From: a bacterium
Lineage (GTDB): Bacteria > Arandabacterota > Arandabacteria > Arandabacterales > JALGWA01
NCBI GenBank assembly: GCA_050125095.1
Contig: JASFEA010000001.1
Location: 1,389-65,388, forward strand
Length of the DNA: 64,000 nt
Direction: 5' to 3'
Position numbers and translations under genes: made by a program. Below the pieces are notes generated by a model. It was not told the DNA's origin. It saw nothing but the letters and a program-made list of their open reading frames with translations, and did not search any database. This document shows, piece after piece, positions 14,845 to 61,950 of the stretch (positions within the stretch are counted from its first letter, which is position 1; each line of letters starts with the position of its first letter).

Positions 14845-14867
14845 AATGTCGGCGGGTCCTGAGGACG

Positions 14868-42411: not shown

Positions 42412-42831
42412 ATGGGTGATACACGCGTCAGGTTGTCCAGAGACAGGGTAATGAGTGACTTCGTAAAGCGCGTAAACGAAATAAGCGGTCAGAACGTCCT
42501 CAACTGCTATCAATGCGGCAGGTGTTCTTCCGGATGTCCCCTGACCTTCGCAATGGACCTTCTCCCGAGCCAGGTGATCAGGCTCGTTCAGCTGGGTCTG
42601 GAAGAGGAAGCTCTCGAGGGAAACACGCAGTGGCTCTGCGCATCATGCCTGACCTGTCATGCAAGATGCCCCAGGGGCGTTGATCTGGCCAAGGTAATGG
42701 AGGCGCTGAGAGCTCTCAAGCTGAGGCCGGGTAAGGAAAGCCGCATAAAGATAGAGGATATTCCCAAAGAGCAGCTGGCGAAGATGCCTCAGCAGGGTAT
42801 TGTCAGTGGTTTCAGGAAACTCACCGGTTAA
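42412..42831 (+). CDS. hdrC: Heterodisulfide reductase subunit C-like (HdrC; two [4Fe-4S] ferredoxin motifs)
   Basis: CYQCGRCSSGCP and CASCLTCHARCP motifs with the HdrC-type spacing. SD AAGGAGA lies 9 nt upstream of ATG 42412. Confidence 0.8.
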   Translation: MGDTRVRLSRDRVMSDFVKRVNEISGQNVLNCYQCGRCSSGCPLTFAMDLLPSQVIRLVQLGLEEEALEGNTQWLCASCLTCHARCPRGVDLAKVMEALRALKLRPGKESRIKIEDIPKEQLAKMPQQGIVSGFRKLTG

Positions 42832-42855
42832 GAGTCAGTGTCCCAGGAGGATATC

Positions 42856-43785
42856 GTGAAGGTAGCTTACTTTCCCGGTTGTACGCTCAAGACCAAGGCG
42901 AAGGGACTCGACGACTCGGTCGTGGACACCGCCAGGGCCCTGGGGTACGACCTCGAAGAGGTCCCGGACTGGACCTGCTGCGGGGCGACATTCAACCTTT
43001 CGGTTGACAACATCATGGCCCTCGCGCCGCCCATCCGCATACTCGCCAACGCGCAACAGATAGGAAAAGAAGTCGTGACGGTCTGCGCCGGTTGCTACAA
43101 CGTCCTCAAGCGCGCGAATTACACCGTCCGGAACGACCCCGAGAAACTCCAGAAGATCACCGATTTTATCGAACTCGATTACAACGGAGATACGGAGGTG
43201 CTCCACTACCTGGAGTTCCTGAGAGACAGGGTGGGGTTCGAGAAGATATCGAAGAACTTGAAGAGGGATCTTGGCGAGCTCAAGGTCGTACCCTATTACG
43301 GCTGCCAGCTCCTGAGGCCGCATGAGGAAGTCCTCCTGGACGATCCCGAGAATCCCATGATACTGGACAACATGCTCGAGGCCATCGGCTGCGATGTCCT
43401 CGAGTTTCCGCATAAGGGCGAGTGCTGCGGCGCGTTTCTCACCGTCTGCAGCAACCTCGAGGCCCGCCTGGCCGAGCCCGGCGACAGGCCGGACAACGCC
43501 GTCAGCGACTGCTCCTACACCATAGTGAACTCGGCCGGCAAGAGAGGGGCGGACCTCATCGTTCTGTCATGCCCGCTCTGCCAGTACAATATCGATTACT
43601 CGCAGGAGCGGATCATAAAGGAGCATTACGGCTTCAAGCAGGTGCCTTCGCTTTATTTCTCGCAGCTTCTGGCGCTTGCCCTCGGCCTCGACATGAACAA
43701 GTATTCTCTTGATGATAAGCATCATTTCATTAATCCCAAAGGAGTCATAGAACAGAAAGTCCTGTCTCAACGTGAGGTAGCCTGA
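42856..43785 (+). CDS. hdrB: Heterodisulfide reductase subunit B-like (HdrB; two CCG Cys-rich domains)
   Basis: Two CCG domains (YFPGCTL...WTCCGATF...CAGCY and YYGCQL...GECCGAFL...SCPLCQYN). Proposed GTG start at 42856 is preceded by AGGAGG at 6 nt. The track ORF is from 42838. Confidence 0.8.
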   Translation: MKVAYFPGCTLKTKAKGLDDSVVDTARALGYDLEEVPDWTCCGATFNLSVDNIMALAPPIRILANAQQIGKEVVTVCAGCYNVLKRANYTVRNDPEKLQKITDFIELDYNGDTEVLHYLEFLRDRVGFEKISKNLKRDLGELKVVPYYGCQLLRPHEEVLLDDPENPMILDNMLEAIGCDVLEFPHKGECCGAFLTVCSNLEARLAEPGDRPDNAVSDCSYTIVNSAGKRGADLIVLSCPLCQYNIDYSQERIIKEHYGFKQVPSLYFSQLLALALGLDMNKYSLDDKHHFINPKGVIEQKVLSQREVA

Positions 43786-45758
43786 TGAAAAGGATAGGCG
43801 TTTTCGTTTGCTGGTGCGGATCCAATATAGCTTCTACGGTCGACGTCGGCAAGGTGGTCGAGGCCGCGAAGAAGATGCCGGGTGTCGTGCACGCGGAGGA
43901 CTACAAGTACCTGTGCTCCGATCCCGGTCAGAACATAGTACAGAAGGCGATCGCGGACCACAACCTCGATGCCGTGGTCATAAGCGCTTGCACTCCGAGC
44001 CTCCACGAGCCCACGTTCAGGAAGGCCTGCGAGCTCTCGGGGCTCAACCCCTATCAGTGCGAGATAGCCAACATCCGCGAGCAGTGCAGCTGGGTGCACG
44101 ACGATCCGGAAGCCGCGACCAGGAAGGCGGTTCTGGTCATAAGGTCGATTGTAGAGAAGGTCAAGCTCAACGAGTCTCTCGATCCGATTACCGCGCCGCT
44201 CACGAAGCGCGCGATGGTGATCGGAGCCGGCATAAGCGGCATACAGTCCGCGCTTGACATCGCCAACGCCGGCTATGAGGTCGTTCTGGTCGAGCGCGAG
44301 CCGGCCATCGGCGGCCACATGGCGCAGCTATCGGAGACATTCCCGACGCTCGATTGCTCCCAGTGTATCCTCACTCCCAAGATGGTGGAAGTAAGCCGCC
44401 ATCCCAATATCAAGCTCATGACCTACAGCGAGGTCCTTGAGGTATCCGGCTTTGTGGGCAACTTCACCGCGAAGATACTCAAGAAGCCCAGGTACGTCAA
44501 AGAAGACGTGTGCACAAACTGCGGAGACTGCTCGGACGTATGCCCCGTGGTCGTGCCCAACGAGTTCGACCGGGGCCTTTCCTCCAGGCACGCCATATAC
44601 GTGCCTTTCCCGCAGGCCGTGCCCGCGATCTACACGCTGGACGCGAACTCATGTCTCGGGCTCTTCCCGCTGGCCTGCGAGAACTGCCGCAATGCATGCG
44701 AGGTCGACGCGATAGACTATGACATGGAACCCGAGGTCGTCGAAGAGCAGGTCGGAGCCATAGTGGTCGCCACCGGCTTCGACGTCTTTCCCATCGAGGA
44801 GATCAAGGAATACGGCTACGGCAAGTGCCCGGACATAATAGACGGGCTGCATTTCGAGCGGCTTCTCTCGGCCTCCGGTCCCACGCAGGGCGAGGTCAGG
44901 AGGCCTTCGGACGGCAAGGTTCCCAAGGAAGTGGTGTTCGTCCAGTGCGCCGGCTCGAGGGACACCGAACGCGGCAAGCCCTATTGCTCCAAGATATGCT
45001 GCATGTACACGGCCAAGCACGCGATGCTCTACAAGCACAAGGTGCATGACGGCCAGGCGTATATCTTCTATATCGACGTTCGCGCAGCCGGCAAGAACTA
45101 CGAGGAGTTCTACCAGCGCGGCGTCGAAGAGGACGGGACCATGTACTTGAGGGGCAAGGCCTCCAAGATCTTCGAGGAGGACGGCAAGGTCTATGTCTGG
45201 GGCTCTGATACGCTCACGGGCAAGAAGATCGAGATAGCCGCGGACATGGTAGTGCTGGCGGCCCCCATCATCCCGAGCGTGGGCACCGCCGAGCTCGCCA
45301 AGAAGCTCAGGATCCAGACCGATATAAACGGCTTCCTCTCGGAAGTGCATCCCAAGCTCAGGCCCGTGGAAAGTATCACTGCCGGGTACTTCCTGGCAGG
45401 CGCGGGGCAGGCTCCCAAGGACATTCCGGAGGCCGTCGCCCAGGCGAGCGGCGCCGCGAGCAAGGTGCTCGACCTCTTCAGCCAGAACGAGGTGCATCAC
45501 GACCCCATGATCGTCGGCATAGACGAGGACCTCTGCAGCGGCTGCGGCGTATGCGTCGGCGTATGCCCGTACTCGGCGAGGGAGCTGGATACCGAGCGCA
45601 AGAAGGTAAGGGTGATTGAGGTTCTCTGTGAAGGCTGCGGCGCCTGCGGGGCGGCCTGTCCCACAGGGGCGGCCCAGCAGAGGAACCTGACTGACAGGCA
45701 AGTTGCGACAATGGTCGGGGCCACGCTCGACACGTTAACAGAGGAAACAGAAGAGTAA
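43785..45758 (+). CDS. hdrA: Heterodisulfide reductase subunit A-like (HdrA; FAD plus multiple Fe-S clusters)
   Basis: HdrA N-terminal 4-Cys region (GVFVCWCGSNI...CSDPG...ISACTPS...REQCSW), FAD-binding GAGISGIQSALDIA, inserted ferredoxin CTNCGDCSDVCP, and C-terminal CSGCGVCVGVCP/CEGCGACGAACP. The start overlaps the hdrB stop (TGATG). Confidence 0.85.
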   Translation: MKRIGVFVCWCGSNIASTVDVGKVVEAAKKMPGVVHAEDYKYLCSDPGQNIVQKAIADHNLDAVVISACTPSLHEPTFRKACELSGLNPYQCEIANIREQCSWVHDDPEAATRKAVLVIRSIVEKVKLNESLDPITAPLTKRAMVIGAGISGIQSALDIANAGYEVVLVEREPAIGGHMAQLSETFPTLDCSQCILTPKMVEVSRHPNIKLMTYSEVLEVSGFVGNFTAKILKKPRYVKEDVCTNCGDCSDVCPVVVPNEFDRGLSSRHAIYVPFPQAVPAIYTLDANSCLGLFPLACENCRNACEVDAIDYDMEPEVVEEQVGAIVVATGFDVFPIEEIKEYGYGKCPDIIDGLHFERLLSASGPTQGEVRRPSDGKVPKEVVFVQCAGSRDTERGKPYCSKICCMYTAKHAMLYKHKVHDGQAYIFYIDVRAAGKNYEEFYQRGVEEDGTMYLRGKASKIFEEDGKVYVWGSDTLTGKKIEIAADMVVLAAPIIPSVGTAELAKKLRIQTDINGFLSEVHPKLRPVESITAGYFLAGAGQAPKDIPEAVAQASGAASKVLDLFSQNEVHHDPMIVGIDEDLCSGCGVCVGVCPYSARELDTERKKVRVIEVLCEGCGACGAACPTGAAQQRNLTDRQVATMVGATLDTLTEETEE

Positions 45759-45773
45759 AAAGGTGAGGTAACG

Positions 45774-46556
45774 ATGGCAGCGAAGAAAGCAGCTACTAAG
45801 CCCAAGACGAAGAAGGCAGCCAAAGACGCCGGGCCCGAGATGATTCCAATTTACATCATGGGCAAAAGGTACGACGTGCCCAAGGGCCTTACCATACAGA
45901 AGGCGCTTGAGTACGCGGGTATGACGCTTCTGCGCGGCTGCGGTTGCAGGGGTGGGTTCTGCGGCGCCTGCGGTACCGTTTACAGGACCAAAGGCGACTA
46001 CAAGCTCAAGGTCGCCCTGGCCTGCCAGACCGTCGTTGAAGACGGCATGTACCTTACCCAGATACCTTTCTATCCGGCTAACAAGGCCACGTACGATATC
46101 GAGAAACTCGGGCCCGTGCTCGAGGATGTTGTGCAGTGCTATCCCGAGCTCATGCGATGCGTGCAGTGCGGGACCTGCACCAAGGTGTGCCCGCAGGACA
46201 TCGACGTGATGCAGTACATGGCGACGGCCATGCGCGGAGACATCTCCCGCACGGCCGACCTCTCTTTCGACTGCATCATGTGCGGGCTCTGCGCGAGCCG
46301 CTGCCCGGCGGAGACGGTGCAGTACTACGTGGGCATCCTCAACAGGCGCCTCTACGGCAAGTATGTCGCGCCCGCGGCCAAGCACGTGCAGGAGAGAATC
46401 AAGGAGCTTGAGGCCAGCAAGTATGATAAGGAAATCGCCGACTACATGAAGATGGACAAAAAAGAACTTCAGAAAATATACGAATCAAGAGATATCGAAC
46501 CGGAAGACCTGAGTGTGGAGCCCGCTTTGACGGCTTCCGGCGAGAAGAACGACTGA
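45774..46556 (+). CDS. Succinate dehydrogenase/fumarate reductase iron-sulfur subunit-like protein (SdhB/FrdB/TfrB-type)
   Basis: Lys-rich N-terminal tail (KKAATKPKTKKAAKD), then a 2Fe-2S-type Cys pattern CGCRGGFCGACG and two ferredoxin-type motifs CVQCGTCTKVCP / CIMCGLCASRCP. No membrane-anchor gene is nearby. Confidence 0.7.
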   Translation: MAAKKAATKPKTKKAAKDAGPEMIPIYIMGKRYDVPKGLTIQKALEYAGMTLLRGCGCRGGFCGACGTVYRTKGDYKLKVALACQTVVEDGMYLTQIPFYPANKATYDIEKLGPVLEDVVQCYPELMRCVQCGTCTKVCPQDIDVMQYMATAMRGDISRTADLSFDCIMCGLCASRCPAETVQYYVGILNRRLYGKYVAPAAKHVQERIKELEASKYDKEIADYMKMDKKELQKIYESRDIEPEDLSVEPALTASGEKND

Positions 46557-46575
46557 ATTAAGGAGGAGAGTTGAG

Positions 46576-48243
46576 ATGGCACTGCAGCCGGGAGCTGACC
46601 CTTATCCCAAGTCAATGCGTGAGACCATAAAGAAGGTCGAAGCGACCCGTTCTCGCCGGATGTCAGAGGAGTTCGACCGGATTACCGCCGACCAGAAGGC
46701 GGACCTCTTGGAGAAGTACCATCCCGACCATAAAAGGGGCGAAATGGTCGAGATAAAGGTTGGCATTAGCAAGGGCGAGAAGACTCCCAAGGAAGTCGAG
46801 AACATACTGCAGGCATATAGCCGCCTCGACCCCAAGAGCTTCGACCTCAGCCGGGTCGACTTCGATGTCGACGTGCTCGTCATAGGCGGCGGCGGCGCCG
46901 GAGCGTCCGCGGCCCTTATGGCGCATGAGCAGGGCGCCAAGGTTCTGCTCACCACCAAGCTCCGTCTGGGCGATGCCAACACCATGATGGCGCAGGGCGG
47001 TATCCAGGCCGCCGACAAGCCCAATGATCCGCCGTCGAGGCACTATCTGGACGTCATAGGCGGCGGCGGATACTACAATATCCCCGAGCTCGTGAAGGCG
47101 CTCGTACTTGACGCGCCCCGCGTCATAGACTGGCTCCAGGGGCTCGGCACCATGTTCGACAAGACGGCCGACGGTACTTACGTCACGATACACGGCGGCG
47201 GCACGTCGAGAAGAAGGATGCACGCCGCGCGCGACTACAGCGGCGCCGAGATAATGAGAACGCTGAGGGACGAGGTCCTGAACCGGGGAATAGAGGTCGT
47301 CGAGTTCACAGCGGCCATCGAACTCCTGAAGGACGATGAAGGCAAGTGCGCCGGCGCCGTGCTCTATAATATGGAAACAGAAGAGCATTTCGTCTGCCGC
47401 GCCAAGACCACGGTGATAGCCACGGGCGGCGCCGGAAGGCTCCATGTCCAGGGCTTCCCGACTACCAACCATTACGGGGCGACGGCCGACGGGCTCGTTC
47501 TCGCCTATCGCGCGGGCGCTCCGTTCATATTCATGGACGCAATTCAGTACCACCCCACCGGGGCCGCATTTCCGGAGCAGATCCTGGGGCTCCTGGTAAC
47601 CGAGAAAGTGCGCGGCATGGGCGCCCAGCTGGTCAACATCGAAGGGGATCAGTTCATTTATCCCCTGGAGACCAGGGACGTTGTTGCGTCGGGCATCATA
47701 CGCGAGTGCGGCGAGAGGAAGAAGGGCATAAGCACGAACACCGGCATGGTCGGCGTGTGGCTGGACTCGCCCATGATAGACCTGAAGCACGGCCCGGGCT
47801 CGGTGAAGCGCGCGCTTCCCGCCATGGTCCGGCAATACGAGCGCTGCGACATAGACATGACCAAGGACCCGATCCTCGTCTTCCCTACGCAGCACTACCA
47901 GAACGGCGGTGTCCTCATCAACGACAAGGCCGAGGCCGGGTTGGCGAACCTCTTCATCGGTGGCGAGGCGGCCGGCGGCATTCACGGCCGTAACAGGCTG
48001 ATGGGGAACTCGCTGCTGGACATACTCGTATTCGGCAGGCGCGCGGGACTCAACGCTGCGGCGCTTTCCAAGAAGACCAAGATAGGCAAACTCACCCTCA
48101 AGCATGTTGGGGAATATCATAAGGATCTCGAGGCGGCAGGCGTTCCGAAGGAGAAGGTCTCGCCGATGCTGCTGCCCGACTACCGCACGCCTGAGACCAA
48201 GGAGAGGCAGAAAGGCCAGGTGCCGCTGGGCGGGGCTGTCTAG
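46576..48243 (+). CDS. Fumarate reductase/succinate dehydrogenase flavoprotein-family FAD oxidoreductase (FrdA/SdhA/TfrA-like), non-covalent FAD type
   Basis: FAD motif DVLVIGGGGAGASAA, QYHPTG (cf. QFHPTG), and active-site GEAAGGIHGRNRLMGNSLLDILVFGRRAG (cf. HGANRLGGNSLLD). There is no His at the covalent-FAD position (GDANTMMAQGG). There is a 90-aa N-terminal extension. SD AAGGAGGAG. Confidence 0.75.
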   Translation: MALQPGADPYPKSMRETIKKVEATRSRRMSEEFDRITADQKADLLEKYHPDHKRGEMVEIKVGISKGEKTPKEVENILQAYSRLDPKSFDLSRVDFDVDVLVIGGGGAGASAALMAHEQGAKVLLTTKLRLGDANTMMAQGGIQAADKPNDPPSRHYLDVIGGGGYYNIPELVKALVLDAPRVIDWLQGLGTMFDKTADGTYVTIHGGGTSRRRMHAARDYSGAEIMRTLRDEVLNRGIEVVEFTAAIELLKDDEGKCAGAVLYNMETEEHFVCRAKTTVIATGGAGRLHVQGFPTTNHYGATADGLVLAYRAGAPFIFMDAIQYHPTGAAFPEQILGLLVTEKVRGMGAQLVNIEGDQFIYPLETRDVVASGIIRECGERKKGISTNTGMVGVWLDSPMIDLKHGPGSVKRALPAMVRQYERCDIDMTKDPILVFPTQHYQNGGVLINDKAEAGLANLFIGGEAAGGIHGRNRLMGNSLLDILVFGRRAGLNAAALSKKTKIGKLTLKHVGEYHKDLEAAGVPKEKVSPMLLPDYRTPETKERQKGQVPLGGAV

Positions 48244-48261
48244 GCCGGGAAAGCACGGCGC

Positions 48262-48290
48262 TTGACACATGCGGTAGGGAATGCTAGCTT
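48262..48290 (+). promoter_or_regulatory. Promoter candidate TTGACA-N17-TAGCTTCC upstream of the EF-G-like gene
   Basis: Same -35 hexamer and identical -10 octamer as the hdr operon promoter candidate. Lies 70 nt upstream of the TTG start. Confidence 0.35.
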
Positions 48291-48358
48291 CCACGCTGGC
48301 CATCCGAGTTCCACCACACGGAAGCTTATCTTAGGCTATTACGAATGGGGGAAGGGAA

Positions 48359-50446
48359 TTGAAGGAGTATAACACTGCTGACATTCGCAACGTGGTAACG
48401 GTGTCCCATGGAGGTGCAGGCAAGACTTCTCTTGCCGAATCATTGCTATTCGCCGGCAAGGCGACCTCCAGATTCGGCAAGGTCGATGACGGGAGCTCTG
48501 TGCTCGACTACGGCGAGGACGAGGCCGAAAGGAAAATCACCTTAAATCTCGCTGTCGCTCATATCGAGTATAAGAACACAAAGATCAACCTCATCGATAC
48601 GCCCGGCTACGCCGACTTCTACGGCGACACCAAGGCGGGGATCCGCGCGGCGGACGCGGCCCTGGTGCTGGTAAGGGCCGACGCGGGCATCGAAGTCGGC
48701 ACCGACAAGGTATGGGAGTTCACCGGGGAAGTCGGAATTCCCAGGCTCATAGTCATGAATCGCATGGACAAGGAGCACGCCGACTTCGACAAGGTGCTGG
48801 CCCAGCTGCAGGACCATTACGGGACCTCCGTTGCGCCGATGCATATACCGGTGGGCGCCGGTGATGGCTTCAGCGGCGTGGTCGACCTCCTCACAATGAA
48901 GTACTACAAGTACGAGCGCGGCAAGCCCGGAGCCGGGCTCATGCAGGACATCCCCGGCGACCTCAGCGACCGGGCGAAGTCCATGAGGGAGAAGCTCATA
49001 GAGAGCATAGCCGAGTCCAGCGACGAACTCCTTGAAGCTTATCTCGAAGGCAAGGACATACAGCAGGACGCCCTGGTCGGCGCGCTTCAGGCCGGCTTCA
49101 AGATGGGCAAGATCGTCCCCGTATTCTGTTCGGCGGCCGTTCACGGCATAGGCGCCCAGCAGATACTGGATGCCATTGCCGGCTTCTTTCCGTCGCCCCT
49201 GGATGCCGGCGAGTTCAAATGCACCAAGCCGGGATCCACTGAGGAGATTACGAGGAAGATCTCGGTCGACGACCCCTTCGCTGCGCTGGTCTTCAAGACC
49301 ATATCCGAGCCCCACCTGGGAGACATGTCCATATTCAAGGTATATAGCGGCGCCTTCAAGGAGGGCACCGAGGTCCAGAACTCGGTCAAGGGCTCTTCCG
49401 AGAAGGTCACCCAGCTCTACAGCCTGATGGGCAAGGAGAGGAGAGAGGTGAACAAGGTGGTGGCGGGCGACATCGGCGCCACGGTGAAGCTGAGGGACAC
49501 CTCGACCAACGATACGCTCTGCCAGAAGGGCAATCAGGTCATCATAGACCCCATCAAGTTCCCCAGGCCCGTCGTCAGGGAGGCGCTCTTCCCCAAGAAC
49601 AAGGGTGAAGAGGACAAGGTGTCGAGCGGAATGGCCAGGCTGCTCCAGGAGGACCCGACATTTACCATGGTCGTGGACCCCGAGATCAAGCAGACCATCG
49701 TCTCGGGCCTCGGCGAGCTCCACCTCGCGGTAATACTCGAAAGGCTCAAGAAGCGCTCGGGCGTTGAAGTATTACTCGAGAAGCCGCGGATTCCCTACAG
49801 GGAGACCATCAAGGGCAAAGCCGAGAAGCAGGGGAAGTACAAGAAACAAACCGGAGGCCGCGGGCAGTACGGCGACGTCTGGCTTCGCATAGAGCCCATG
49901 CCCAGGGGAGAGGGCTTCGAGTTCGCCGACGAGATTGTGGGCGGGGCGGTTCCCTCCAAATTCGTGCCGGCCGTGGAGAAGGGCGTCAAGGAGACCATGG
50001 AGAAGGGCGCCTACGCCGGATACAACGTCGTAGACGTCAAGGCCATAATATATGACGGGTCGTTCCACCCGGTAGACTCATCCGATATGGCTTTCAAGGT
50101 GGCTGCTTCCATGGCTTTCAAGAAGGCGTTTCTCGAAGCCAAGCCGATTCTCTTAGAGCCCATCATGAACATCACGGTCACGGTGCCCGAGGAGAACCTG
50201 GGCGACGTCATGGGCGACGTATCGAGCCGCAGGGGCAAGATCCAGGGTGTCGAAGGCAAAGGCAACCTCCAGGTCGTGAGGGCGTCGGTGCCGCTTGCGG
50301 AGCTCTACAAGTACTCCACCCAGCTCCGGTCGATGACTCAGGGCAGGGGCATGTACGAGAACGAGTTCTCTCATTATGAAGAGGTGCCCCACGAGATCGC
50401 CCAGAAGATAGCCGAAGAGCACCAGACCCAGGCGGCCGAGAAATAG
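48359..50446 (+). CDS. Elongation factor G paralog (EF-G-like translational GTPase) with His to Tyr substitution in the G3 motif
   Basis: Five-domain EF-G architecture (695 aa). G1 SHGGAGKTS, G2 RKITL and G4 NRMD are present, but G3 reads DTPGYADF (DNA acg ccc ggc tac gcc gac) instead of DTPGHVDF. TTG start preceded by GGGGGAAGGG. Confidence 0.75.
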   Translation: MKEYNTADIRNVVTVSHGGAGKTSLAESLLFAGKATSRFGKVDDGSSVLDYGEDEAERKITLNLAVAHIEYKNTKINLIDTPGYADFYGDTKAGIRAADAALVLVRADAGIEVGTDKVWEFTGEVGIPRLIVMNRMDKEHADFDKVLAQLQDHYGTSVAPMHIPVGAGDGFSGVVDLLTMKYYKYERGKPGAGLMQDIPGDLSDRAKSMREKLIESIAESSDELLEAYLEGKDIQQDALVGALQAGFKMGKIVPVFCSAAVHGIGAQQILDAIAGFFPSPLDAGEFKCTKPGSTEEITRKISVDDPFAALVFKTISEPHLGDMSIFKVYSGAFKEGTEVQNSVKGSSEKVTQLYSLMGKERREVNKVVAGDIGATVKLRDTSTNDTLCQKGNQVIIDPIKFPRPVVREALFPKNKGEEDKVSSGMARLLQEDPTFTMVVDPEIKQTIVSGLGELHLAVILERLKKRSGVEVLLEKPRIPYRETIKGKAEKQGKYKKQTGGRGQYGDVWLRIEPMPRGEGFEFADEIVGGAVPSKFVPAVEKGVKETMEKGAYAGYNVVDVKAIIYDGSFHPVDSSDMAFKVAASMAFKKAFLEAKPILLEPIMNITVTVPEENLGDVMGDVSSRRGKIQGVEGKGNLQVVRASVPLAELYKYSTQLRSMTQGRGMYENEFSHYEEVPHEIAQKIAEEHQTQAAEK

Positions 50447-50448
50447 CC

Positions 50449-50497
50449 GGGGTCAGGTCTGGGGTCAGGTCTGGGGTCAGGTCTTGAAATGCACAGG
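50449..50497 (+). repeat. 3 x 12-bp tandem GGGGTCAGGTCT followed by TGAAATGCACA; this is the third copy of the dispersed element at 14868-14920
   Basis: Begins 2 nt after the EF-G-like stop codon. The last unit plus its tail (GGGGTCAGGTCTTGAAATGCACA) matches the minus-strand copies at 14.9 kb with one position shifted. Confidence 0.7.
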
Positions 50498-50577
50498 CCC
50501 CGGATGCACAGCCAAACATATGCCCCTTCCGGGCTCGGAGCCCGGGAGGGGTAGTTTTATCAGCCGAAGGACTCCAC

Positions 50578-51516
50578 ATGCCGTCTGAAGCGCAGCCGCT
50601 CGGGATATCGACGGCCTGGAACGCCGCCAGCCTCAGGGACGGCGAGAAGGTAATCGGCGAGATCCTGCGGGTCGGCTTCCGCTCGATTGAAGTTGACTAT
50701 CGACTGAGCGAAAACGCCGTTCCGCTTCTCAAGCAATACATCCGCGAGGGCAGGCTGACAGTCTCGAGCGTACACAATTTCGCCCCCCTGCCCAGGGGAG
50801 AGGACCCGAAGAATACGGGAGGCGACAAGCTGTCGCTGGCCTCCACGGATGAGGCGGAGAGGCAGGATGCCGTGGCCCTCACGAGGACGACCATAGACCT
50901 CGCAAGAGACCTCGGCGCACGGGCCGTAGTGCTTCACATAGGCCATGTCGAGGTAGGCATACGTTACTTCCAGGAGATCTCGGACATCTGCCGGGTAGAG
51001 GGCGTCAACTCAAAAAAGGCCATGCAGATGAGGGACATGGTGAGGAAGATGCGCAAAGACCTGCGGCCGCCCCACATGGACAGTGTGACGAGGAGCCTCA
51101 AGGAGCTCGTCGCTTATGTCGGCGAGGATGATTTGACGCTCTGTATCGAGAACCGGTATTTTTTCCACCAGATACCGCTCCCGGTCGAGGTTCTCTTTCT
51201 CATTGACGAGATATCCTCCGACCGGCTCAAGTACTGGCACGACATCGGCCACGCGCATGTGCTCGAGGTGCAGGGCTGGCTCCCGCATCTGCCCGCTCTG
51301 GACACTCTGAAGCAGCATCTCTTCGGAGTGCACATTCACGACTCGGTCTTCACCGGAGACCACATAGCGCCCGGCACGGGCGAGATCGACTTCGAGCCGA
51401 TATTCCGCCGGGTGCCCCCCGGGGCCATAAAGGTGATGGAGCTCTCCCCCAAGGTGAGTGAAGATGAGGTATTGAATTCAATAGACTTCCTCTCGAAGTT
51501 CGGCCTGAAGCCCTAG
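50578..51516 (+). CDS. Sugar phosphate isomerase/epimerase (xylose-isomerase-like TIM barrel)
   Basis: AP-endonuclease-2/xylose-isomerase-like TIM-barrel pattern: GFRSIEVDY, VVLHIGH, metal-binding E/D/H spacing (IENRYF...WHDIGHAHV...HIHD). Confidence 0.6.
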   Translation: MPSEAQPLGISTAWNAASLRDGEKVIGEILRVGFRSIEVDYRLSENAVPLLKQYIREGRLTVSSVHNFAPLPRGEDPKNTGGDKLSLASTDEAERQDAVALTRTTIDLARDLGARAVVLHIGHVEVGIRYFQEISDICRVEGVNSKKAMQMRDMVRKMRKDLRPPHMDSVTRSLKELVAYVGEDDLTLCIENRYFFHQIPLPVEVLFLIDEISSDRLKYWHDIGHAHVLEVQGWLPHLPALDTLKQHLFGVHIHDSVFTGDHIAPGTGEIDFEPIFRRVPPGAIKVMELSPKVSEDEVLNSIDFLSKFGLKP

Positions 51517-51898
51517 GTGCGGATCCCGCCCGGTGAGCCCAAAAACCGCGAGCGGTTCCGGCTTCGGCTTGAATCTCAAGAACCCCTGGACATGAGCGTG
51601 GGGCGTTTGCCGCTCGACGGCGCGATTAGCAGTACGAGGGTTACGGCCGGGACCGGCAGCGCCGAGACCTGGCCGCGCGCCGCTTGCTATTTCAGTGAGG
51701 CGGCACAAAAAAAAGCTTGAAAGAGCGGCCCGACTATACTAAATTCTTTCGCTGTATGCCGTCTGCCGTTGGTGCCGCCAGGAAGTGGACGGCGTTCCGG
51801 CGGATTGTGTACGGGCCCCGCCGTTAATGCCCATGGAGACAAGAAGCGTCCAGGGGTGTGACCGCGGCGGCAGTAAGACAGGAACAGAGGAATGTGCT

Positions 51899-52165
51899 GT
51901 GTTGAGCTATGAGAAGATCAGCGAGATTCTCAAGGCAATAGCGCATCCTACACGTATGGAGATAATCGTCCGGCTCAGGGAGGACGGCTGCAATGTCTCG
52001 GAGATACAGAAAAATCTCGGGCTGCCGCAGTCGACAATATCCCAGCATCTCAGAATACTGAAGAACGCTGGTGTTCTCTCGAGCCGAAGGGAAGGGACGA
52101 AGGTCTGCTACAACGTGGAGATGAAAGAAATCATCAGCATGATAGAAGCACTTGGGAGAGACTGA
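51899..52165 (+). CDS. ArsR/SmtB-family transcriptional regulator (candidate thiol/persulfide-responsive repressor)
   Basis: wHTH: LKAIAHPTRMEIIVRL...CNVSEIQKNLGLPQSTISQHLRILKNAGVLSSRREG. Cys in alpha-3 (DGCNVSE, position equivalent to BigR/SqrR Cys) and a second Cys in the wing (KVCY). The GTG/TTG start at 51899/51902 was chosen. The track ORF from 51785 is far longer than ArsR proteins. Confidence 0.7.
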   Translation: MLSYEKISEILKAIAHPTRMEIIVRLREDGCNVSEIQKNLGLPQSTISQHLRILKNAGVLSSRREGTKVCYNVEMKEIISMIEALGRD

Positions 52166-52174
52166 TTTTTTTTG

Positions 52175-52224
52175 CCCATTTCCACCGTATTATCCTAATA
52201 GACAGATTAGCCGGTGGAAGTGGT
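52175..52224 (+). promoter_or_regulatory. Imperfect 12-bp inverted repeat (CCATTTCCACCG...CGGTGGAAGTGG) enclosing TATTAT and a nested CTAAT/ATTAG palindrome: candidate ArsR operator and tusA-yeeE promoter
   Basis: Arms match 11/12 and are separated by 24 nt. Located between the arsR stop (52165) and the tusA start (52347). A -10-like TATTAT sits at 52188-52193. Confidence 0.4.
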
Positions 52225-52346
52225 GCGCGATGCGGGAGCGTCAAGCAAGCGCAGTTATGCAGCCGGATGATTCCGGCAGTATAAGGAGAAGTAAGGGAAG
52301 TGGTTTGAAACCGCCTGGTCAGATTGCCAGAAAGGGGAGGTAACAG

Positions 52347-52580
52347 ATGGACGTCAATGTTGACAAGACACTGGACTGCAAGGGCCTTTCCTGTCCCATG
52401 CCGATTCTGAAGCTCGCCAAAGAGATCAAGACGATGGAGAGCTCACAGGTCCTCGAGCTCCTTGGCACCGATCCCGGGTCCAAGGCCGATGTTCCCGGTT
52501 GGTGTGAGAAGACCGGAAACGAGTTCCTCGGTATGGAGGAAGAAGAGGGCGTCTACAAGTTCTATATCCGGAAGTCGTGA
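52347..52580 (+). CDS. tusA: TusA-family sulfur carrier protein
   Basis: 77 aa. LDCKGLSCPMPILKLAKEI contains the CPxP persulfide-carrying motif. Confidence 0.85.
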   Translation: MDVNVDKTLDCKGLSCPMPILKLAKEIKTMESSQVLELLGTDPGSKADVPGWCEKTGNEFLGMEEEEGVYKFYIRKS

Positions 52581-52639
52581 TTCGGGAAGACCTGCCGTCA
52601 CGGCAGGATAGGGCTCTGTCCACTTCGAGAAGGAGCTGA

Positions 52640-53854
52640 TTGATGGGAAACGATGAAAAGGGAGCCTGGCGCCAGCTGTGGAACACGTTCTTCGGCAAGA
52701 CATGGCCGATGTGGGCCGCAGGCATTTTGCTCGCTTTGCTCAACGTCTGTCTGTTCCTGGTTAAATCTCCATGGGGTGGAAGCGGGACGTACATTAACTG
52801 GGGGGAGAACATCTACAGCGGACTCAAGTTGTTTGGCCTCTCCGGCATCAAGCCGGTTCTCTCGCATACCTATGGCCTGCTGGGGTTGTTGACCCTGCTC
52901 GGGGCTTTTGCGGGGGCGCTGTTGGGGCGCGAGTTCGCGCTCAGGATCCCGCCGCCCGGAGAGATGTTTAAAGGGCTCCTGGGCGGCATCCTCATGGCGC
53001 TCGGTGCGACCCTGGGAATCGGCTGCACGATAGGCGGCTTCTTAAGCGGATGGGCAGCCCTCTCGGGCGGCGCCATCATCCTCGCGGTAGGATTCGTAAT
53101 AGGCACCTATATCGCCCTGCGTTATCTGCTCTGGGAGATGGAAAACCTCCCCAGGATGAGTACGGGCAAGAGCTACACCTGGCTGGCGGCTAAGGCAGGC
53201 GGCGGCGTCTGGCAACCCATACTGGGGGTTATGCTGACGGTCTTCCTTCTCGTCCTGTTCGGCCGGCGTTTCCAGAACGACAACGTACTGGCGATGTTCG
53301 CGATTATCGGCCTGGTGATCGGAATCATCCTCCAGCGTTCCCGTTTCTGCATTGTGAGGGCGTTCAGGGAGCCTTTCATGACGGGTGAATCCGAAGCCCC
53401 TCTGGGCGTCATGGTGGCGCTGGCTGTCGGGATATTCGGTTTTACCGTGATCAAATACATGGGCGTGGGCACTTCGACCCCGGGGGCGGCAAGGGTTCTC
53501 GCCATGACCTGGGTGTATCCCCACTTCTGGCTGAGGGCTCTGATCGGCGGAACCATCTTCGGCCTCGGGATGACAGTGGCCGGGGGATGCGCCATCGGCA
53601 CCATATGGAGGGCCGGCGAGGGACAGGTCAAGCTCTGGTTCTCGGCGCTCGGATTCATGCTGTTCGCCCCGATATCGAAGAAGTTCATCGTTCCGGGATT
53701 CGCCCACATTCTCCCTGAGTGGGCCCAGCAGAAAGTGTTCCTTCCTGATTGGTTCGGGTACTGGGGGGCGATGCTTTTATTCTTCGTCCTGATAGTGCTC
53801 TGGTACGTGTTCGTAAAGTGGAATGAGCGGACCGGCAGGTTTTCGGCTGTATAA
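52640..53854 (+). CDS. YeeE/YedE-family inner-membrane transporter (thiosulfate uptake, TsuA-like)
   Basis: Two YeeE/YedE repeats of about 9 TMs, with conserved Cys-containing loops LGIGCTIGGF and AGGCAIGTIWRAGEG. Directly downstream of tusA, the canonical tsuA-tsuB/yeeE-yeeD pairing. Confidence 0.8.
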   Translation: MMGNDEKGAWRQLWNTFFGKTWPMWAAGILLALLNVCLFLVKSPWGGSGTYINWGENIYSGLKLFGLSGIKPVLSHTYGLLGLLTLLGAFAGALLGREFALRIPPPGEMFKGLLGGILMALGATLGIGCTIGGFLSGWAALSGGAIILAVGFVIGTYIALRYLLWEMENLPRMSTGKSYTWLAAKAGGGVWQPILGVMLTVFLLVLFGRRFQNDNVLAMFAIIGLVIGIILQRSRFCIVRAFREPFMTGESEAPLGVMVALAVGIFGFTVIKYMGVGTSTPGAARVLAMTWVYPHFWLRALIGGTIFGLGMTVAGGCAIGTIWRAGEGQVKLWFSALGFMLFAPISKKFIVPGFAHILPEWAQQKVFLPDWFGYWGAMLLFFVLIVLWYVFVKWNERTGRFSAV

Positions 53855-53860
53855 GATGAG

Positions 53861-54382
53861 GTGAGAATGATGAGAATATTCGCACTCATATCGCTGCTTG
53901 CTCTTGTTGTGGCGCTTGCCGGCTGCGGGGGCGCGGGGACCGAAGGGAGAGGGCCCGCTGCATGCTCGGACGCCAAGGAAATGGTCGCCCATGCGAGGGC
54001 GGGAGTGGACGAGATACTGATCGACGAGTTCAATGCCCTGCTGGATAGCGATGAGTACTTCACCATTATCGACGTTCGCGAGCCGGACGAGTACGATGAA
54101 GGGTGCATCCCCGGCGCAATCAACATCCCGCGCGGCATATTGGAGTTCAAGATCGCCGACGAGAAGTACTGGGACAGCGAAGGCCTGTTCGTGCCCGAGA
54201 AGGACGAAGTCTTAATCGTCTACGGCCACAAGGTAGACCGCGGCGTGCTCGCGGCTGAGTCGCTGGTAAGGCTCGGTTACGGCAATGTCAGGCATCTCTA
54301 CGGGGGATGGGTCGTGTGGACCGAGGGTCCGGAGGCTGTGGAAGTAGAGGAAGTGGTTGAAGAGGGCGGTTGCGGAGGCTAG
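53861..54382 (+). CDS. Rhodanese-homology-domain lipoprotein lacking the catalytic Cys (predicted inactive)
   Basis: Lipobox LAGCGG. Single rhodanese fold (IDVREPDEYDEGCIPGAINIP...LIVYGHKVDRG...LYGGWVVW). The active-site loop has Gly where Cys is expected (DNA tac ggc cac). Ends with EEGGCGG. Confidence 0.7.
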   Translation: MRMMRIFALISLLALVVALAGCGGAGTEGRGPAACSDAKEMVAHARAGVDEILIDEFNALLDSDEYFTIIDVREPDEYDEGCIPGAINIPRGILEFKIADEKYWDSEGLFVPEKDEVLIVYGHKVDRGVLAAESLVRLGYGNVRHLYGGWVVWTEGPEAVEVEEVVEEGGCGG

Positions 54383-54586
54383 CCGGCCGACCCGCGGCAG
54401 CCGGGCAGACAGCAGAACGTGAAATAAAGCATGAATGGATGTAGTAGGTGTCGAGATAGAGCGTTGGCCTGCGGAATGGAATTAAAAAGGGGGTATCGTG
54501 GCCGGTTCCCAAGGGGACCGATTCCGCTCTGCAGCAGATTCAAGGATGGGTTAATCGGCAGTGGACCGCTTAATAGGAGGACAACA

Positions 54587-55555
54587 ATGAGAAGTGCGGC
54601 CAGATATTTCCTGGTCTCGATGGCCCTGGTGGCTGTGATCCTGGCCGGTTGTTCCGAGAACACGACCGCGCCCGGAGGTGACGCTTCAGCCACCCTGCGA
54701 GCCTATCTTGAAGACAATGATCTTGACCTTCCCGACATTCTAACCAGCTGGACAATACTGGCTTCCGAAGTGGAGACGAATCCCGCGGCATACTACATCA
54801 TGGACATCCGTCCTGACACGACGTATGCGAGGGGGCATATCGCCGGAGCCGTCAATTCCACGCTTGGCGATATCCTCGACGACGCGGCCAATAGCGGCGG
54901 CAAGCCCATAGTCGTCGCCTGTCTCACGGGCCAGTCCGCGGGGCATGCGATGTTGGCTCTGCGCTTGAGCGGATACCCCGACGCCAGGATCCTGAAGTGG
55001 GGTATGAGCTCGTGGAATGAGGACTTCGACAAGTGGACGGCCAACACCGCCAGTATCGCGGTGGGTCACTCAAACTGGTCTATGGACGCGACGCCGTCCC
55101 CGGGCACCTATGATTATCCGACGCTGATTACCACCGCCACCGACGGGCCGGGCATTCTGGCCGAGCGCGTGGAGGAAATGCTGTCCGGCGGCTTCAAGGG
55201 TGTAGAACCCGACGACGTTCTCGAATCGCCCGGAGACTACTATATCAACCTCTACTGGGAAGAGGATGACGTCACGACTTTCGGTCACATAGACGGCGCT
55301 TACAGGATACAGCCGCTCAGCCTGGCCGGCGACACGTTCAAGCACTACGACCCGGATGAGACCGTCGTCACGTACTGCTGGACGGGTCAGACCTCGTCAG
55401 TGATCACGGCGTACCTCAATATACTCGGGTACGACGCCAGGAGCCTCAAGTTCGGGGCCAATGCGCTCATATACAGCGAGCTGACCAAGCAGTACTGGGA
55501 AGGCTCAGAGGATTTCGAATACACGGTCTCATCACTGGCCTCGATGGCTGAGTGA
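54587..55555 (+). CDS. Tandem-rhodanese-domain lipoprotein (both domains with active-site Cys)
   Basis: AGGAGG lies 6 nt upstream of ATG 54587. Lipobox ILAGCSE. Domain 1 loop VVACLTGQSAG, domain 2 loop VTYCWTGQTSS. The track ORF extends to 54431. Confidence 0.75.
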   Translation: MRSAARYFLVSMALVAVILAGCSENTTAPGGDASATLRAYLEDNDLDLPDILTSWTILASEVETNPAAYYIMDIRPDTTYARGHIAGAVNSTLGDILDDAANSGGKPIVVACLTGQSAGHAMLALRLSGYPDARILKWGMSSWNEDFDKWTANTASIAVGHSNWSMDATPSPGTYDYPTLITTATDGPGILAERVEEMLSGGFKGVEPDDVLESPGDYYINLYWEEDDVTTFGHIDGAYRIQPLSLAGDTFKHYDPDETVVTYCWTGQTSSVITAYLNILGYDARSLKFGANALIYSELTKQYWEGSEDFEYTVSSLASMAE

Positions 55556-55670
55556 GCGGTTGTTGAGGGCGAGACCAACAGGAACTGTAAGTAAGCGATC
55601 AAGTGATGGTTCATAAGAGAGTGACAGTAGGGCCCGAAGAACTTCGGCTCGTGTCGAAAGGAGAGGGACT

Positions 55671-56714: not shown

Positions 56715-56761
56715 GGACGACGTTGTCATGCAGATGATGCCTGAAAGGAAGGAGGTCTGAC

Positions 56762-57628: not shown

Positions 57629-57654
57629 AACGGCCTGGAAGGGAGACAACCTAA

Positions 57655-58014: not shown

Positions 58015-58044
58015 AGTGGTCTCTAGTTGTAGGAGGAACGCAGA

Positions 58045-58269: not shown

Positions 58270-58391
58270 GTTCATTCTGCCGGTTGGCACCGGGGGACAG
58301 GAAGGCGGCGGGATGCGGCTGTGAGAGCATCGACGGGCGCTGTGTCGTCGCCATTTCAGGATCCCGCTGCCCTTGAGAGAGAATTGTTGAT

Positions 58392-58832: not shown

Positions 58833-58847
58833 CGGAGGATACGCGAG

Positions 58848-60176: not shown

Positions 60177-60190
60177 TGCAGGAAGCGTCT

Positions 60191-61873: not shown

Positions 61874-61950
61874 GTCTGCCCGGGACGCCGCCCGTAAGGG
61901 GAGGGCCGGGCATGGAGATTGAGAGTGGTTAGAGCATTTGGAGAGGCGAT

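What the first reader, a model, noticed from the sequence alone, without database searches (positions are those of the whole stretch)
48359..50446. EF-G paralog with the catalytic G3 histidine replaced by tyrosine
All five EF-G domains and the other GTPase motifs are intact, but DTPGH is DTPGY at the DNA level (tac). The histidine at this position is the residue that activates the hydrolytic water in translational GTPases. A Tyr there predicts a GTP-binding but hydrolysis-impaired factor. The gene is embedded in the sulfur/redox locus and has its own promoter-like TTGACA-N17-TAGCTTCC. Its 3' end is immediately followed by the triplicated GGGGTCAGGTCT repeat. This looks like a specialised ribosome-associated factor, possibly for protection or hibernation under stress, rather than the housekeeping EF-G. 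The housekeeping EF-G would be expected elsewhere next to rpsG/tuf.
Basis: seen in the sequence. Interest (0 to 1): 0.55.

Follow-up and report, generated by a model that had tools for sequence, protein, structure and literature searches.

The report
EF-G2-type elongation factor paralog
This gene encodes an ordinary member of the widespread, already described "EF-G2 / EFG II" family of second-copy elongation factors, in which loss of the catalytic histidine (here to tyrosine) is the family norm, not a peculiarity of this genome.

Summary
Window 48359-50446 (+) is an intact 695-aa five-domain EF-G homologue whose G3 motif reads DTPGY (tac, 48608-48610). It is not a sequencing error. All 118 close homologues that include the N-terminus (52-99% identity) have D-x-P-G-Y, and relatives use both TAT and TAC. 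It is also not special to this gene. Solved EF-G2 structures carry Tyr at this position (T. thermophilus 1WDT, M. smegmatis 9K0Z) or Ser (B. thetaiotaomicron 7UVP). Across 85 related loci and 150 distant cluster representatives, His is essentially confined to canonical EF-G. The protein carries the published EFG II signature residues (Leu25, Thr291, Gly333, Lys352, Lys471/472). It lies outside any rpsL-rpsG-fusA-tuf context. The active site is remodelled beyond the His: the P-loop is SHGGAGKTSL, G2 is RKITL and G4 is NRMD. The His-to-Tyr change in mycobacterial EF-G2 is already discussed in the literature. Whether GTP hydrolysis is lost is uncertain: Tyr-bearing T. thermophilus EF-G-2 hydrolyses GTP, but M. 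smegmatis EF-G2 does not. The gene has its own conserved extended -10 promoter and its own terminator. Its position next to an Hdr-like/flavoprotein cluster is conserved within this lineage only. Verdict: new member of a known kind, low interest.

The parts
48262..48267 (+). -35 hexamer TTGACA of the EF-G2 promoter
   Evidence: Read. CTTGACA is invariant in 6 orthologous upstream regions whose proteins are 66-100% identical, while the surrounding DNA diverges.
48282..48290 (+). Extended -10 element TGcTAGCTT (TG at 48282-48283, TAGCTT at 48285-48290), with a 17-nt spacer from the -35
   Evidence: TG-n-TA-n-C-n-T is invariant in the 6-way alignment. The hexamer matches TATAAT at only 3 of 6 positions (T1, A2, T6), so the generic scan does not call it.
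48347..48352 (+). Shine-Dalgarno-like GGGGGA, 6 nt before the TTG start
   Evidence: Invariant in all 6 orthologous regions.
48359..50446 (+). EF-G2 / EFG II-type elongation factor G paralogue, 695 aa, stop codon included
   Evidence: ORF. Five EF-G domains. NCBIfam best hit NF009381 'elongation factor G' subfamily at 931.6 bits. EFG II signature residues present.
48404..48433 (+). G1 / P-loop SHGGAGKTSL (canonical AHIDAGKTTT). The hydrophobic-gate Ile becomes Gly, the monovalent-cation Asp becomes Gly, and the EFG II-specific Leu25 equivalent is present
   Evidence: The roles of these residues come (literature).
48530..48544 (+). G2 / switch I RKITL (canonical RGITI). Arg, Ile and the Mg-binding Thr are kept; Gly becomes Lys
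   Evidence: A relaxed G2 is a defining EFG II trait.
48596..48610 (+). G3 / switch II DTPGY. Tyr84 (tac, 48608-48610) replaces the catalytic His
   Evidence: Conserved in 118 of 118 homologues. Also Tyr in 1WDT and 9K0Z.
48758..48769 (+). G4 NRMD (canonical NKMD). The guanine-specifying Asp is kept
49784..50143 (+). Domain IV, with conserved tip loops (KQTGGRGQYGD and YDGSFHPVDSS) and the EFG II-specific KK
   Evidence: Pfam EFG_IV 476-595. Alignment to S. aureus EF-G. K471/K472 equivalents.
50449..50484 (+). Perfect 3 x 12-nt tandem repeat GGGGTCAGGTCT in the 3' UTR. The last copy begins a ~25-nt motif, GGGGTCAGGTCTTGAAATGCACA
   Evidence: TRF score 72. Single copy in L006 and only a degenerate copy in L001. 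The same motif occurs twice at 14867-14920 (-).
50521..50562 (+). Intrinsic terminator: 15-bp stem (10 G-C pairs), 3-nt loop, then GTTTTAT
   Evidence: The hairpin is kept in L006 through changes on both arms.

Best explanation
The gene encodes a member of the EFG II (EF-G2) subfamily, the ancient and widespread second EF-G paralogue that coexists with a canonical fusA. It is transcribed on its own, from a conserved extended -10 promoter to its own intrinsic terminator. It keeps the elements needed to bind guanine nucleotide: GKT/S, the switch I Thr, DxxG, the Asp of NRMD, and SA. It also keeps what is needed to dock on the ribosome as EF-G does: five domains and conserved domain IV tip loops. 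The catalytic centre, however, is remodelled in the family-typical way. His becomes Tyr, the P-loop Ile-Asp becomes Gly-Gly, and the switch I Gly becomes Lys. The most likely mode of action (inferred, not shown) is this. The factor binds the ribosomal A-site/GTPase centre in the GTP form and promotes or gates translocation slowly, with GTP turnover much weaker than, or activated differently from, housekeeping EF-G. It would act as an auxiliary factor under particular conditions such as energy or nutrient limitation. My estimates: about 0.9 that it is an EFG II member; about 0.65 that ribosome-stimulated GTPase is at least ten-fold below canonical EF-G; about 0.45 that it works as a slow or GTP-sparing translocase, against about 0.3 for a non-translocating, stress-specific ribosome binder.
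For: Shown here. Five EF-G domains. The Tyr is invariant in 118 of 118 close homologues and is encoded by both Tyr codons across loci. Across 85 related loci the position is Y, L, D, F, V or Q and never H. Among 150 representatives from a library clustered at 50% identity it is 76 Y, 33 F and only 9 H; 5 of those 9 are canonical EF-G with AHIDAGKTT/RGITI/DTPGH/NKMD. In the G-domain core, the best PDB matches are the two solved Tyr-bearing EF-G2s, 9K0Z (DTPGYADF) and 1WDT (DAPGYGDF). B. thetaiotaomicron EF-G2 (7UVP) has DCPGS. Published EFG II type I/II positions are present: L25, T291, G333, K352, K471, K472, E513, G603. The window holds no str-operon genes and only one EF-G gene. The domain IV loops are conserved against S. 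aureus EF-G. In the best NJ tree the query groups with 1WDT in a clade that excludes canonical EF-G, and canonical EF-G is monophyletic at 83%. Promoter and terminator are conserved. From the literature. EFG II is defined and reported as always accompanied by another EF-G (PMC3150367). M. smegmatis EF-G2 has Tyr98 in place of His88, and an EF-G1 H88Y mutant nearly loses GTPase (bioRxiv 10.64898/2026.05.25.727771). B. thetaiotaomicron EF-G2 translocates without GTP hydrolysis (Han 2023, cited in PMC12775393).
Against: By overall score the protein is closer to canonical EF-G than to any solved EF-G2: 633 bits to S. aureus EF-G against 496-509 bits to 1WDT, 9K0Z and 7UVP. It passes the TIGR00484 EF-G cutoff (740 > 659) but fails the NF009377 'EF-G2' cutoff (656 < 890). 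Bootstrap support for a split placing the query with 1WDT, apart from canonical EF-G and RF3, is only 97 of 200 in my NJ analysis. Position 16 is Ser, which is neither the EFG I nor the EFG II consensus, and position 61 is Thr, as in EFG I and in 1WDT itself. I could not test whether a canonical fusA exists in the same genome. The functional consequence of Tyr is unresolved, since T. thermophilus EF-G-2 with Tyr is reported GTPase-active. No expression or biochemical data exist for this clade.
Confidence: 0.8

Rival explanations
1. It is a stress-specific ribosome-binding regulator, or hibernation-like factor, that does not translocate. It would work like M. smegmatis EF-G2, which binds non-rotated 70S ribosomes, sits away from the sarcin-ricin loop and lacks ribosome-dependent GTPase.
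For: It has the same Tyr substitution as 9K0Z, and in the G-domain core 9K0Z is the best PDB match. The mycobacterial data are described.
Against: Unlike MsmEF-G2, the query keeps the P-loop His (SHGG) and the switch I Arg, Ile and Thr (RKITL), residues reported to contact the SRL or gate catalysis. The domain IV tip loops are canonical. T. thermophilus and B. thetaiotaomicron EF-G2 do translocate.
Confidence: 0.3
2. It is the housekeeping, and possibly the only, EF-G of this organism, with an unusual but functional catalytic residue.
For: It scores above the TIGR00484 EF-G equivalog cutoff, and public sources name it simply 'elongation factor G'. It is full-length, with high similarity to canonical EF-G.
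Against: It is not next to rpsL, rpsG or tuf. It carries the EFG II signature residues, including Lys352 where EFG I has Gly in 100% of sequences. The P-loop and G2 are non-canonical. EFG II genes are reported to be always accompanied by another EF-G.
Confidence: 0.04
3. It is a Tet(M)/Tet(O)-like ribosomal protection protein that confers antibiotic resistance.
For: It gives weak hits to the tet_protect models. PDB depositors labelled B. thetaiotaomicron EF-G2 (7UVP) 'TetQ'.
Against: The tet_protect score of 330.7 bits is far below the 775 cutoff, and the match covers only residues 207-673. The protein is much closer to EF-G proper (633 bits) than to TetM (176-178 bits).
Confidence: 0.02
4. 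The Tyr codon is a sequencing or assembly error, or the gene is a decaying pseudogene.
For: A single T-to-C change at 48608 would restore His.
Against: The ORF is intact at 695 aa. Tyr is present in all 118 close homologues from independent samples and sources, with synonymous codon variation. The promoter, Shine-Dalgarno and terminator are conserved.
Confidence: 0.01

Closest known systems
EFG II subfamily (Margus, Remm & Tenson 2011, PLoS One, PMC3150367); called 'EFGII' in Atkinson 2015 (PMC4342817)
   Same: Five-domain EF-G fold. P-loop ending GKT(S/T)-Leu. Relaxed G2 instead of RGITI. Gly at the P-loop monovalent-cation Asp position. Signature residues T291, G333, K352, K471/K472. Located outside the str operon. 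The G2 form R-x-x-T/S-I/L matches the variant that paper lists for the delta-proteobacterial sub-subgroup.
   Different: It is much less diverged than most EFG II members: no large indels, about 40-43% identity to canonical EF-G, and a score above the TIGR00484 cutoff. Position 16 is Ser, not Gly. The host is an unclassified MAG lineage whose nearest named relatives are Candidatus Eisenbacteria, KSB1, Calditrichota and Latescibacteria. None of these appears among the sub-subgroups quoted from that paper in the passages read.
Thermus thermophilus EF-G-2 (PDB 1WDT/2DY1; Connell et al. 2007)
   Same: DxPGY at G3, GKTxL P-loop, Thr kept in switch I, KYKKQTGG in domain IV. About 40% identity over the trimmed alignment columns; 496 bits over nearly the full length.
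   Different: 1WDT is 30 residues shorter, with G' and linker deletions. It is reported to have ribosome-dependent GTPase and low poly(Phe) activity. Nothing is known for the query.
Mycobacterium smegmatis EF-G2 (PDB 9K0Z/9K10; Seshadri 2009; Sengupta lab)
   Same: Identical DTPGYADF switch II. The His-to-Tyr replacement is explicitly noted there and shown to abolish GTPase when introduced into EF-G1 as H88Y.
   Different: MsmEF-G2 has also lost the P-loop His/Ile/Asp (its loop reads GPSGG), the switch I Arg/Ile/Thr and G5. The query keeps His, Arg, Ile and Thr. MsmEF-G2 is reported not to translocate or recycle.
Bacteroides thetaiotaomicron EF-G2 (PDB 7UVP/8DMF; Han et al. 2023 EMBO J)
   Same: An EFG II-type paralogue that lacks the catalytic His, binds the ribosome, sustains slow translocation without GTP hydrolysis and matters under carbon starvation (plus my own knowledge of that paper, which the library does not hold).
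   Different: B. thetaiotaomicron has Ser (DCPGS), G2 YGYSV and G4 NQLD. It is 718 aa and the match breaks near residue 511-517, consistent with an insertion that the query lacks. The query scores 646 against a cutoff of 1000 for NF058620.

Membership tests
EFG II / EF-G2 subfamily | Five-domain EF-G architecture (G with G', II, III, IV, V) | tested here: met
   Pfam GTP_EFTU, EF-G_D2, EFG_III, EFG_IV and EFG_C are all above cutoff.
EFG II / EF-G2 subfamily | Type I signature positions of Margus 2011 (1WDT numbering): G16, L25, S61, T291, G333, K/R352 | tested here: met
   The query has S16, L25, T61, T291, G333, K352, so 4 of 6 match EFG II. Position 61 is Thr, as in 1WDT itself. Position 16 is Ser, seen in 25 of 154 relatives. 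The 5 canonical controls show A/T/T/I-V/A/G.
EFG II / EF-G2 subfamily | Type II positions D216, V250, L264, K471, K472, E513, G603 | tested here: met
   The query has S, V, I, K, K, E, G, so 5 of 7 are exact.
EFG II / EF-G2 subfamily | trGTPase G2 consensus RGITI relaxed | tested here: met
   RKITL in the query; ERKIT/SI across the clade.
EFG II / EF-G2 subfamily | Catalytic switch II His replaced. This is not in the 2011 definition but is seen in all three solved EF-G2 structures | tested here: met
   The query has Tyr84. 1WDT and 9K0Z have Tyr and 7UVP has Ser. Across 85 related loci the position is never His.
EFG II / EF-G2 subfamily | Phylogenetic grouping with bona fide EFG II, apart from EFG I | tested here: inconclusive
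   NJ tree of 160 sequences rooted on E. coli RF3. The query and 1WDT fall in a 147-tip clade that excludes canonical EF-G. Canonical EF-G is monophyletic in 83 of 100 replicates, but the split that places the query with 1WDT is recovered in only 97 of 200. No ML software was available.
EFG II / EF-G2 subfamily | Gene lies outside the str operon (rpsL-rpsG-fusA-tuf) | tested here: met
   tblastn of E. coli S12, S7 and EF-Tu against the window gives no gene-level hit. The neighbours are Hdr-like and flavoprotein genes and a TIM-barrel gene.
EFG II / EF-G2 subfamily | Accompanied by a canonical EF-G in the same genome | not testable with these tools
This rests on Margus 2011.
NCBIfam NF009377 'elongation factor G-like protein EF-G2' (equivalog) | Whole-protein score at or above the curated cutoff of 890 bits | tested here: not met
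   656.7 bits. The best model is instead NF009381 (PRK12740.1-5, the 'elongation factor G' subfamily) at 931.6 against a cutoff of 583.
Canonical EF-G (EFG I; TIGR00484) | HMM score at or above the curated cutoff | tested here: met
   740.1 against 659.4. The model does not discriminate against this slowly evolving paralogue.
Canonical EF-G (EFG I; TIGR00484) | Canonical catalytic motifs AHIDAGKTT / RGITI / DTPGH / NKMD, and a str-operon location | tested here: not met
   The query has SHGGAGKTS / RKITL / DTPGY / NRMD and no str-operon genes.
Bacteroidetes-type EF-G2 (NF058620) | Score at or above 1000 bits and a full-length match | tested here: not met
   646.2 bits, matching in two stretches; the best stretch is 1-516 against 1-510 of 717.
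Tetracycline ribosomal protection proteins (NF012153) | Score at or above 775 bits | tested here: not met
   330.7 bits, and a partial match only.

The most novel reading that the evidence does not exclude
In this uncultured lineage the EF-G2 gene may be functionally tied to the adjacent Hdr-like (HdrC/B/A) plus SdhB/SdhA-like flavoprotein cluster, so that an alternative, GTP-sparing translocase is deployed according to redox or energy state. The seven-gene block is kept in five genomes whose EF-G2 proteins are 66-100% identical, although both outer flanks have been rearranged. A further possibility is that the clade-conserved switch I Lys (RKIT), together with Tyr84, forms a cation-independent, His-independent route for GTP hydrolysis.
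Probability: 0.06. Interest if true: 0.5.

Novelty: new member of a known kind. Interest (0 to 1): 0.17.

Why it matters
It matters little as a discovery. The paralogue family, its divergent G domain and the His-to-Tyr replacement are all in the literature and in solved structures. It is useful in three smaller ways. First, it is an annotation caution: public sources and TIGR00484 call this protein plain 'elongation factor G'. Second, it shows that loss of the catalytic His is near-universal across a very large and diverse EF-G2-like clade, where the residue is mostly Tyr or Phe, but also Leu, Asp or Ser. Third, this slowly evolving clade keeps the P-loop His and the switch I Arg, Ile and Thr. 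That could make it a clean system for asking what Tyr alone does to GTP hydrolysis, given the contradictory results from Thermus and Mycobacterium.

Tried and rejected
(1) Sequencing error or pseudogene: rejected on conservation and synonymous codon variation.

(2) Tet-like protection protein, RF3, BipA or LepA: all NCBIfam scores are far below their cutoffs.

(3) A known RNA element in the 5' leader or 3' UTR: Rfam at E <= 1 found nothing in 48150-50650.

(4) Generic sigma-70 scan: no promoter called. I rely on the phylogenetic footprint instead.

(5) Reading Han et al. 2023 (PMC9841332): not held, so B. thetaiotaomicron functional claims rest on citing papers and my own knowledge. Its G3 sequence came from the PDB alignment.

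(6) Finding a canonical fusA in the same genome: not possible. The window has none, contig look-ups return only +/-10 kb, and the single genome-contig scan returned only EF-G2-type loci.

(7) A robust rooted phylogeny: only NJ was available and support for the key split was weak.

(8) A functional link to the Hdr cluster: the synteny is conserved only within the clade at 66% identity or above. It is absent at 54-56% identity. The gene also has its own promoter and terminator, so I treat the adjacency as lineage-level synteny.

(9) Structure prediction and fold search were not run. Sequence identity to many solved EF-G structures already fixes the fold, and a predicted model cannot decide catalysis.
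Full report
**Observation**

Window 48359-50446 (+) is an uninterrupted 695-codon ORF with a TTG start. Read directly, codons 80-84 are gat acg ccc ggc tac, which is D-T-P-G-Y. Tyr84 sits at 48608-48610. Pfam finds the complete EF-G architecture: GTP_EFTU, EF-G_D2, EFG_III, EFG_IV and EFG_C.

One refinement is needed, because the other G motifs are not canonical either:
- G1 is SHGGAGKTSL, against canonical AHIDAGKTTT.
- G2 is RKITL, against RGITI.
- G4 is NRMD, against NKMD.

**Is the Tyr real and selected?**

Yes. The best 120 homologues from a 5.8-billion-protein collection span 52-99% identity. All 118 that include the N-terminus read D-x-P-G-Y. In the related loci fetched, this Tyr is encoded by TAT in 15 and TAC in 13. 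Conservation is therefore at the amino-acid level, and a sequencing error is excluded.

**Is it unusual?**

No.
- I scanned one genome per GTDB species. Together with contigs fetched earlier, this gave 85 related loci from Zixibacteria, Nitrospirota, Thermodesulfobacteriota, Clostridia and others. The residue at this position is Y (25), L (35), D (19), F (4), V (1) or Q (1), and never H.
- An exhaustive HMMER search of 1.84 billion cluster representatives returned 150 top hits. These read 76 Y, 33 F, smaller numbers of D/L/A/N/S/T, and 9 H. Five of the nine His sequences are textbook EF-G with AHIDAGKTT / RGITI / DTPGH / NKMD.
- In the G-domain core, the query's best PDB matches are not canonical EF-G. 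They are M. smegmatis EF-G2 (9K0Z, DTPGYADF) and T. thermophilus EF-G-2 (1WDT, DAPGYGDF), both with Tyr.
- B. thetaiotaomicron EF-G2 (7UVP) has DCPGS.

Loss of the catalytic His is thus the norm for a very large, diverse clade of EF-G paralogues.

**Family assignment**

Margus et al. (2011, PMC3150367) defined the EFG II subfamily by phylogeny and by signature positions. I verified the 1WDT sequence and aligned it with the query.
- Type I positions present: Leu25, Thr291, Gly333 and Lys352. EFG I has Gly at position 352 in 100% of sequences.
- Type II positions present: Lys471, Lys472, Glu513 and Gly603.
- Position 61 is Thr, as in 1WDT itself. Position 16 is Ser, a minority state in the clade.
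- Five canonical EF-G controls in the same alignment show the EFG I states.
- The P-loop Asp that binds the monovalent cation is Gly, which Atkinson (2015) noted for EFGII.

I built an NJ tree of 160 sequences rooted on E. coli RF3. The query and 1WDT fall in a 147-tip clade that excludes canonical EF-G. Canonical EF-G is monophyletic in 83% of replicates. The split that places the query with 1WDT is recovered in only 97 of 200 replicates. I call the phylogenetic test inconclusive and rest membership on the signature residues, the motif pattern and the genomic context.

NCBIfam gives a mixed answer:
- The best model is a separate 'elongation factor G' subfamily, NF009381, at 931.6 bits.
- The protein passes TIGR00484 (EF-G) at 740 against a cutoff of 659.
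- It fails the NF009377 'EF-G2' equivalog at 657 against 890.
- It fails the Bacteroidetes EF-G2 model at 646 against 1000.

This fits a slowly evolving EFG II branch. The query is about 40-43% identical to canonical EF-G and about 40% identical to 1WDT, whereas 1WDT is only 34-36% identical to canonical EF-G.

**Context**

The window holds no second EF-G and no rpsL, rpsG or tuf.
- Upstream lie HdrC-like, HdrB-like (CCG) and HdrA-like genes, a 2Fe-2S/4Fe-4S SdhB-like gene and a FAD_binding_2 SdhA/FrdA-like gene.
- Downstream lie a xylose-isomerase-like TIM-barrel gene, an ArsR regulator, a YeeE/YedE sulfur transporter and rhodaneses.
- Further on are a DsrE-like gene and an MvhD/HdrA-like cluster.

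The block hdrC-hdrB-hdrA-FeS-flavoprotein-EF-G2-TIM barrel recurs in four other contigs whose EF-G2 is 66-86% identical. Their downstream flanks differ, and one differs upstream too. The block is absent at 54-56% identity. There EF-G2 sits beside unrelated genes, or beside yebC-ruvCA. I read this as lineage-level synteny, not proof of a functional link.

**Transcription unit**

A generic sigma-70 scan calls nothing upstream. I aligned six orthologous intergenic regions (66-100% protein identity). The only invariant blocks are CTTGACA, then TG-n-TA-n-C-n-T 14 nt later, and the GGGGGA Shine-Dalgarno. In window coordinates these are:
- -35 hexamer at 48262-48267.
- Extended -10 at 48282-48290.
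- Shine-Dalgarno at 48347-48352.

Downstream there is a strong terminator hairpin at 50521-50553 followed by a T-tract. It is preserved in a relative with 85% protein identity through changes on both arms. The gene is therefore most likely monocistronic.

**The 3' repeat**

GGGGTCAGGTCT occurs three times, perfectly, at 50449-50484. The 85%-identity relative has one copy at the same place, and the 86% relative has only a degenerate copy. The last copy starts a ~25-nt motif, GGGGTCAGGTCT(T)GAAA(A)TGCRCA. That motif also occurs twice at 14867-14920 on the minus strand, again just after a stop codon. It is a short dispersed intergenic motif with a strain-specific tandem expansion. No Rfam family matches it. 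I found no evidence that it bears on EF-G2 function.

**Mechanism**

What is shown:
- The nucleotide-binding elements are kept: GKT/S, the switch I Thr, DxxG, the Asp of NRMD, and SA.
- The P-loop His and the switch I Arg and Ile are kept.
- The domain IV tip loops are canonical: KQTGGRGQYGD and YDGSFHPVDSS.

What is changed:
- The catalytic His is Tyr.
- The hydrophobic-gate Ile and the cation-binding Asp of the P-loop are both Gly.
- The switch I Gly is Lys.

What the literature says about relatives:
- T. thermophilus EF-G-2 (Tyr) has ribosome-dependent GTPase and weak poly(Phe) activity.
- M. smegmatis EF-G2 (Tyr) binds the ribosome but has no meaningful ribosome-dependent GTPase. It neither translocates nor recycles, and is proposed to be a stress-specific factor. 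Introducing H88Y into EF-G1 nearly abolishes GTPase.
- B. thetaiotaomicron EF-G2 (Ser) catalyses translocation without GTP hydrolysis.

Inference: the query is an auxiliary, ribosome-binding, GTP-binding factor with weak or differently activated hydrolysis. Its domain IV and switch I are better preserved than in MsmEF-G2. I therefore favour a slow or GTP-sparing translocase (about 0.45) over a non-translocating regulator (about 0.3).

**Novelty and verdict**

The family, its divergent G domain, the His-to-Tyr replacement and its effect when engineered into EF-G1 are all already published or visible in PDB entries dating back years. This particular clade comes from unclassified MAGs. Its nearest named relatives are Candidatus Eisenbacteria, KSB1, Calditrichota and Latescibacteria. 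It is uncharacterised and is labelled simply 'elongation factor G'. It is a new member of a known kind, and interest is low (0.17).

The residual speculative angle is a link to the neighbouring Hdr-like redox cluster, or a Lys/Tyr-based alternative hydrolysis chemistry. I give that about 6%.

Noticed in passing
window 50449-50499 (+) and 14867-14920 (-): A ~25-nt motif, GGGGTCAGGTCT(T)GAAA(A)TGCRCA, lies just downstream of two unrelated stop codons, in gene orientation each time. Its first 12 nt are triplicated after EF-G2, and the whole motif is duplicated with a 29-nt period after the gene at 14982-16181 (-). There are five exact 12-mer copies against 0.41 expected by chance. It has no Rfam match and its function is unknown.
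   Followed up: partly
window 42412-48243 (+); also L001, L003, L088, L089: A five-gene cluster: HdrC-like (Fer4), HdrB-like (CCG), HdrA-like (657 aa), a 2Fe-2S/4Fe-4S SdhB-like protein (260 aa) and a FAD_binding_2 SdhA/FrdA-like flavoprotein (555 aa). This is an Hdr-coupled fumarate-reductase-like or thiol:fumarate-reductase-like arrangement. It is conserved together with EF-G2 and a TIM-barrel gene across relatives whose EF-G2 is 66-100% identical.
   Followed up: partly
L088 11387-14271 and L090 3867-5849: In two relatives (66% and 54% identity) the EF-G2 gene lies next to yebC (TACO1 family) followed by ruvC-ruvA(-ruvB). In L090 it is immediately adjacent; in L088 the TIM-barrel gene lies between. 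This may be an older neighbourhood for this EF-G2 clade.
   Followed up: no
L039-L085 (Clostridia loci): Many Clostridia EF-G2-like genes have Leu at the catalytic position (DAPGLFD) and have also lost the G4 NKxD motif (it reads NGLC). This suggests they no longer recognise guanine in the standard way.
   Followed up: no
window 51785-63117: A dense set of sulfur-trafficking and redox genes: an ArsR regulator, a YeeE/YedE sulfur transporter (52640-53854), two rhodanese-domain proteins (53861-54382 and 54431-55555), a porin O/P, a DsrE-like protein (57655-58014), an MvhD/FlpD protein (58392-58832), two HdrA/Qmo-like flavoproteins (58848-61873) and an FrhB/FdhB-like Fe-S protein (61951-63117).
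   Followed up: partly
P0134, P0224, P0229, P0243 (cluster representatives): Four EF-G2-like representatives with otherwise non-canonical P-loop and G2 motifs nevertheless carry His at the catalytic position. This could be retention or reversion. Two of the three that entered the NJ tree (P0229, P0243) branch near the root; P0224 does not. P0134's placement was not examined.
   Followed up: no
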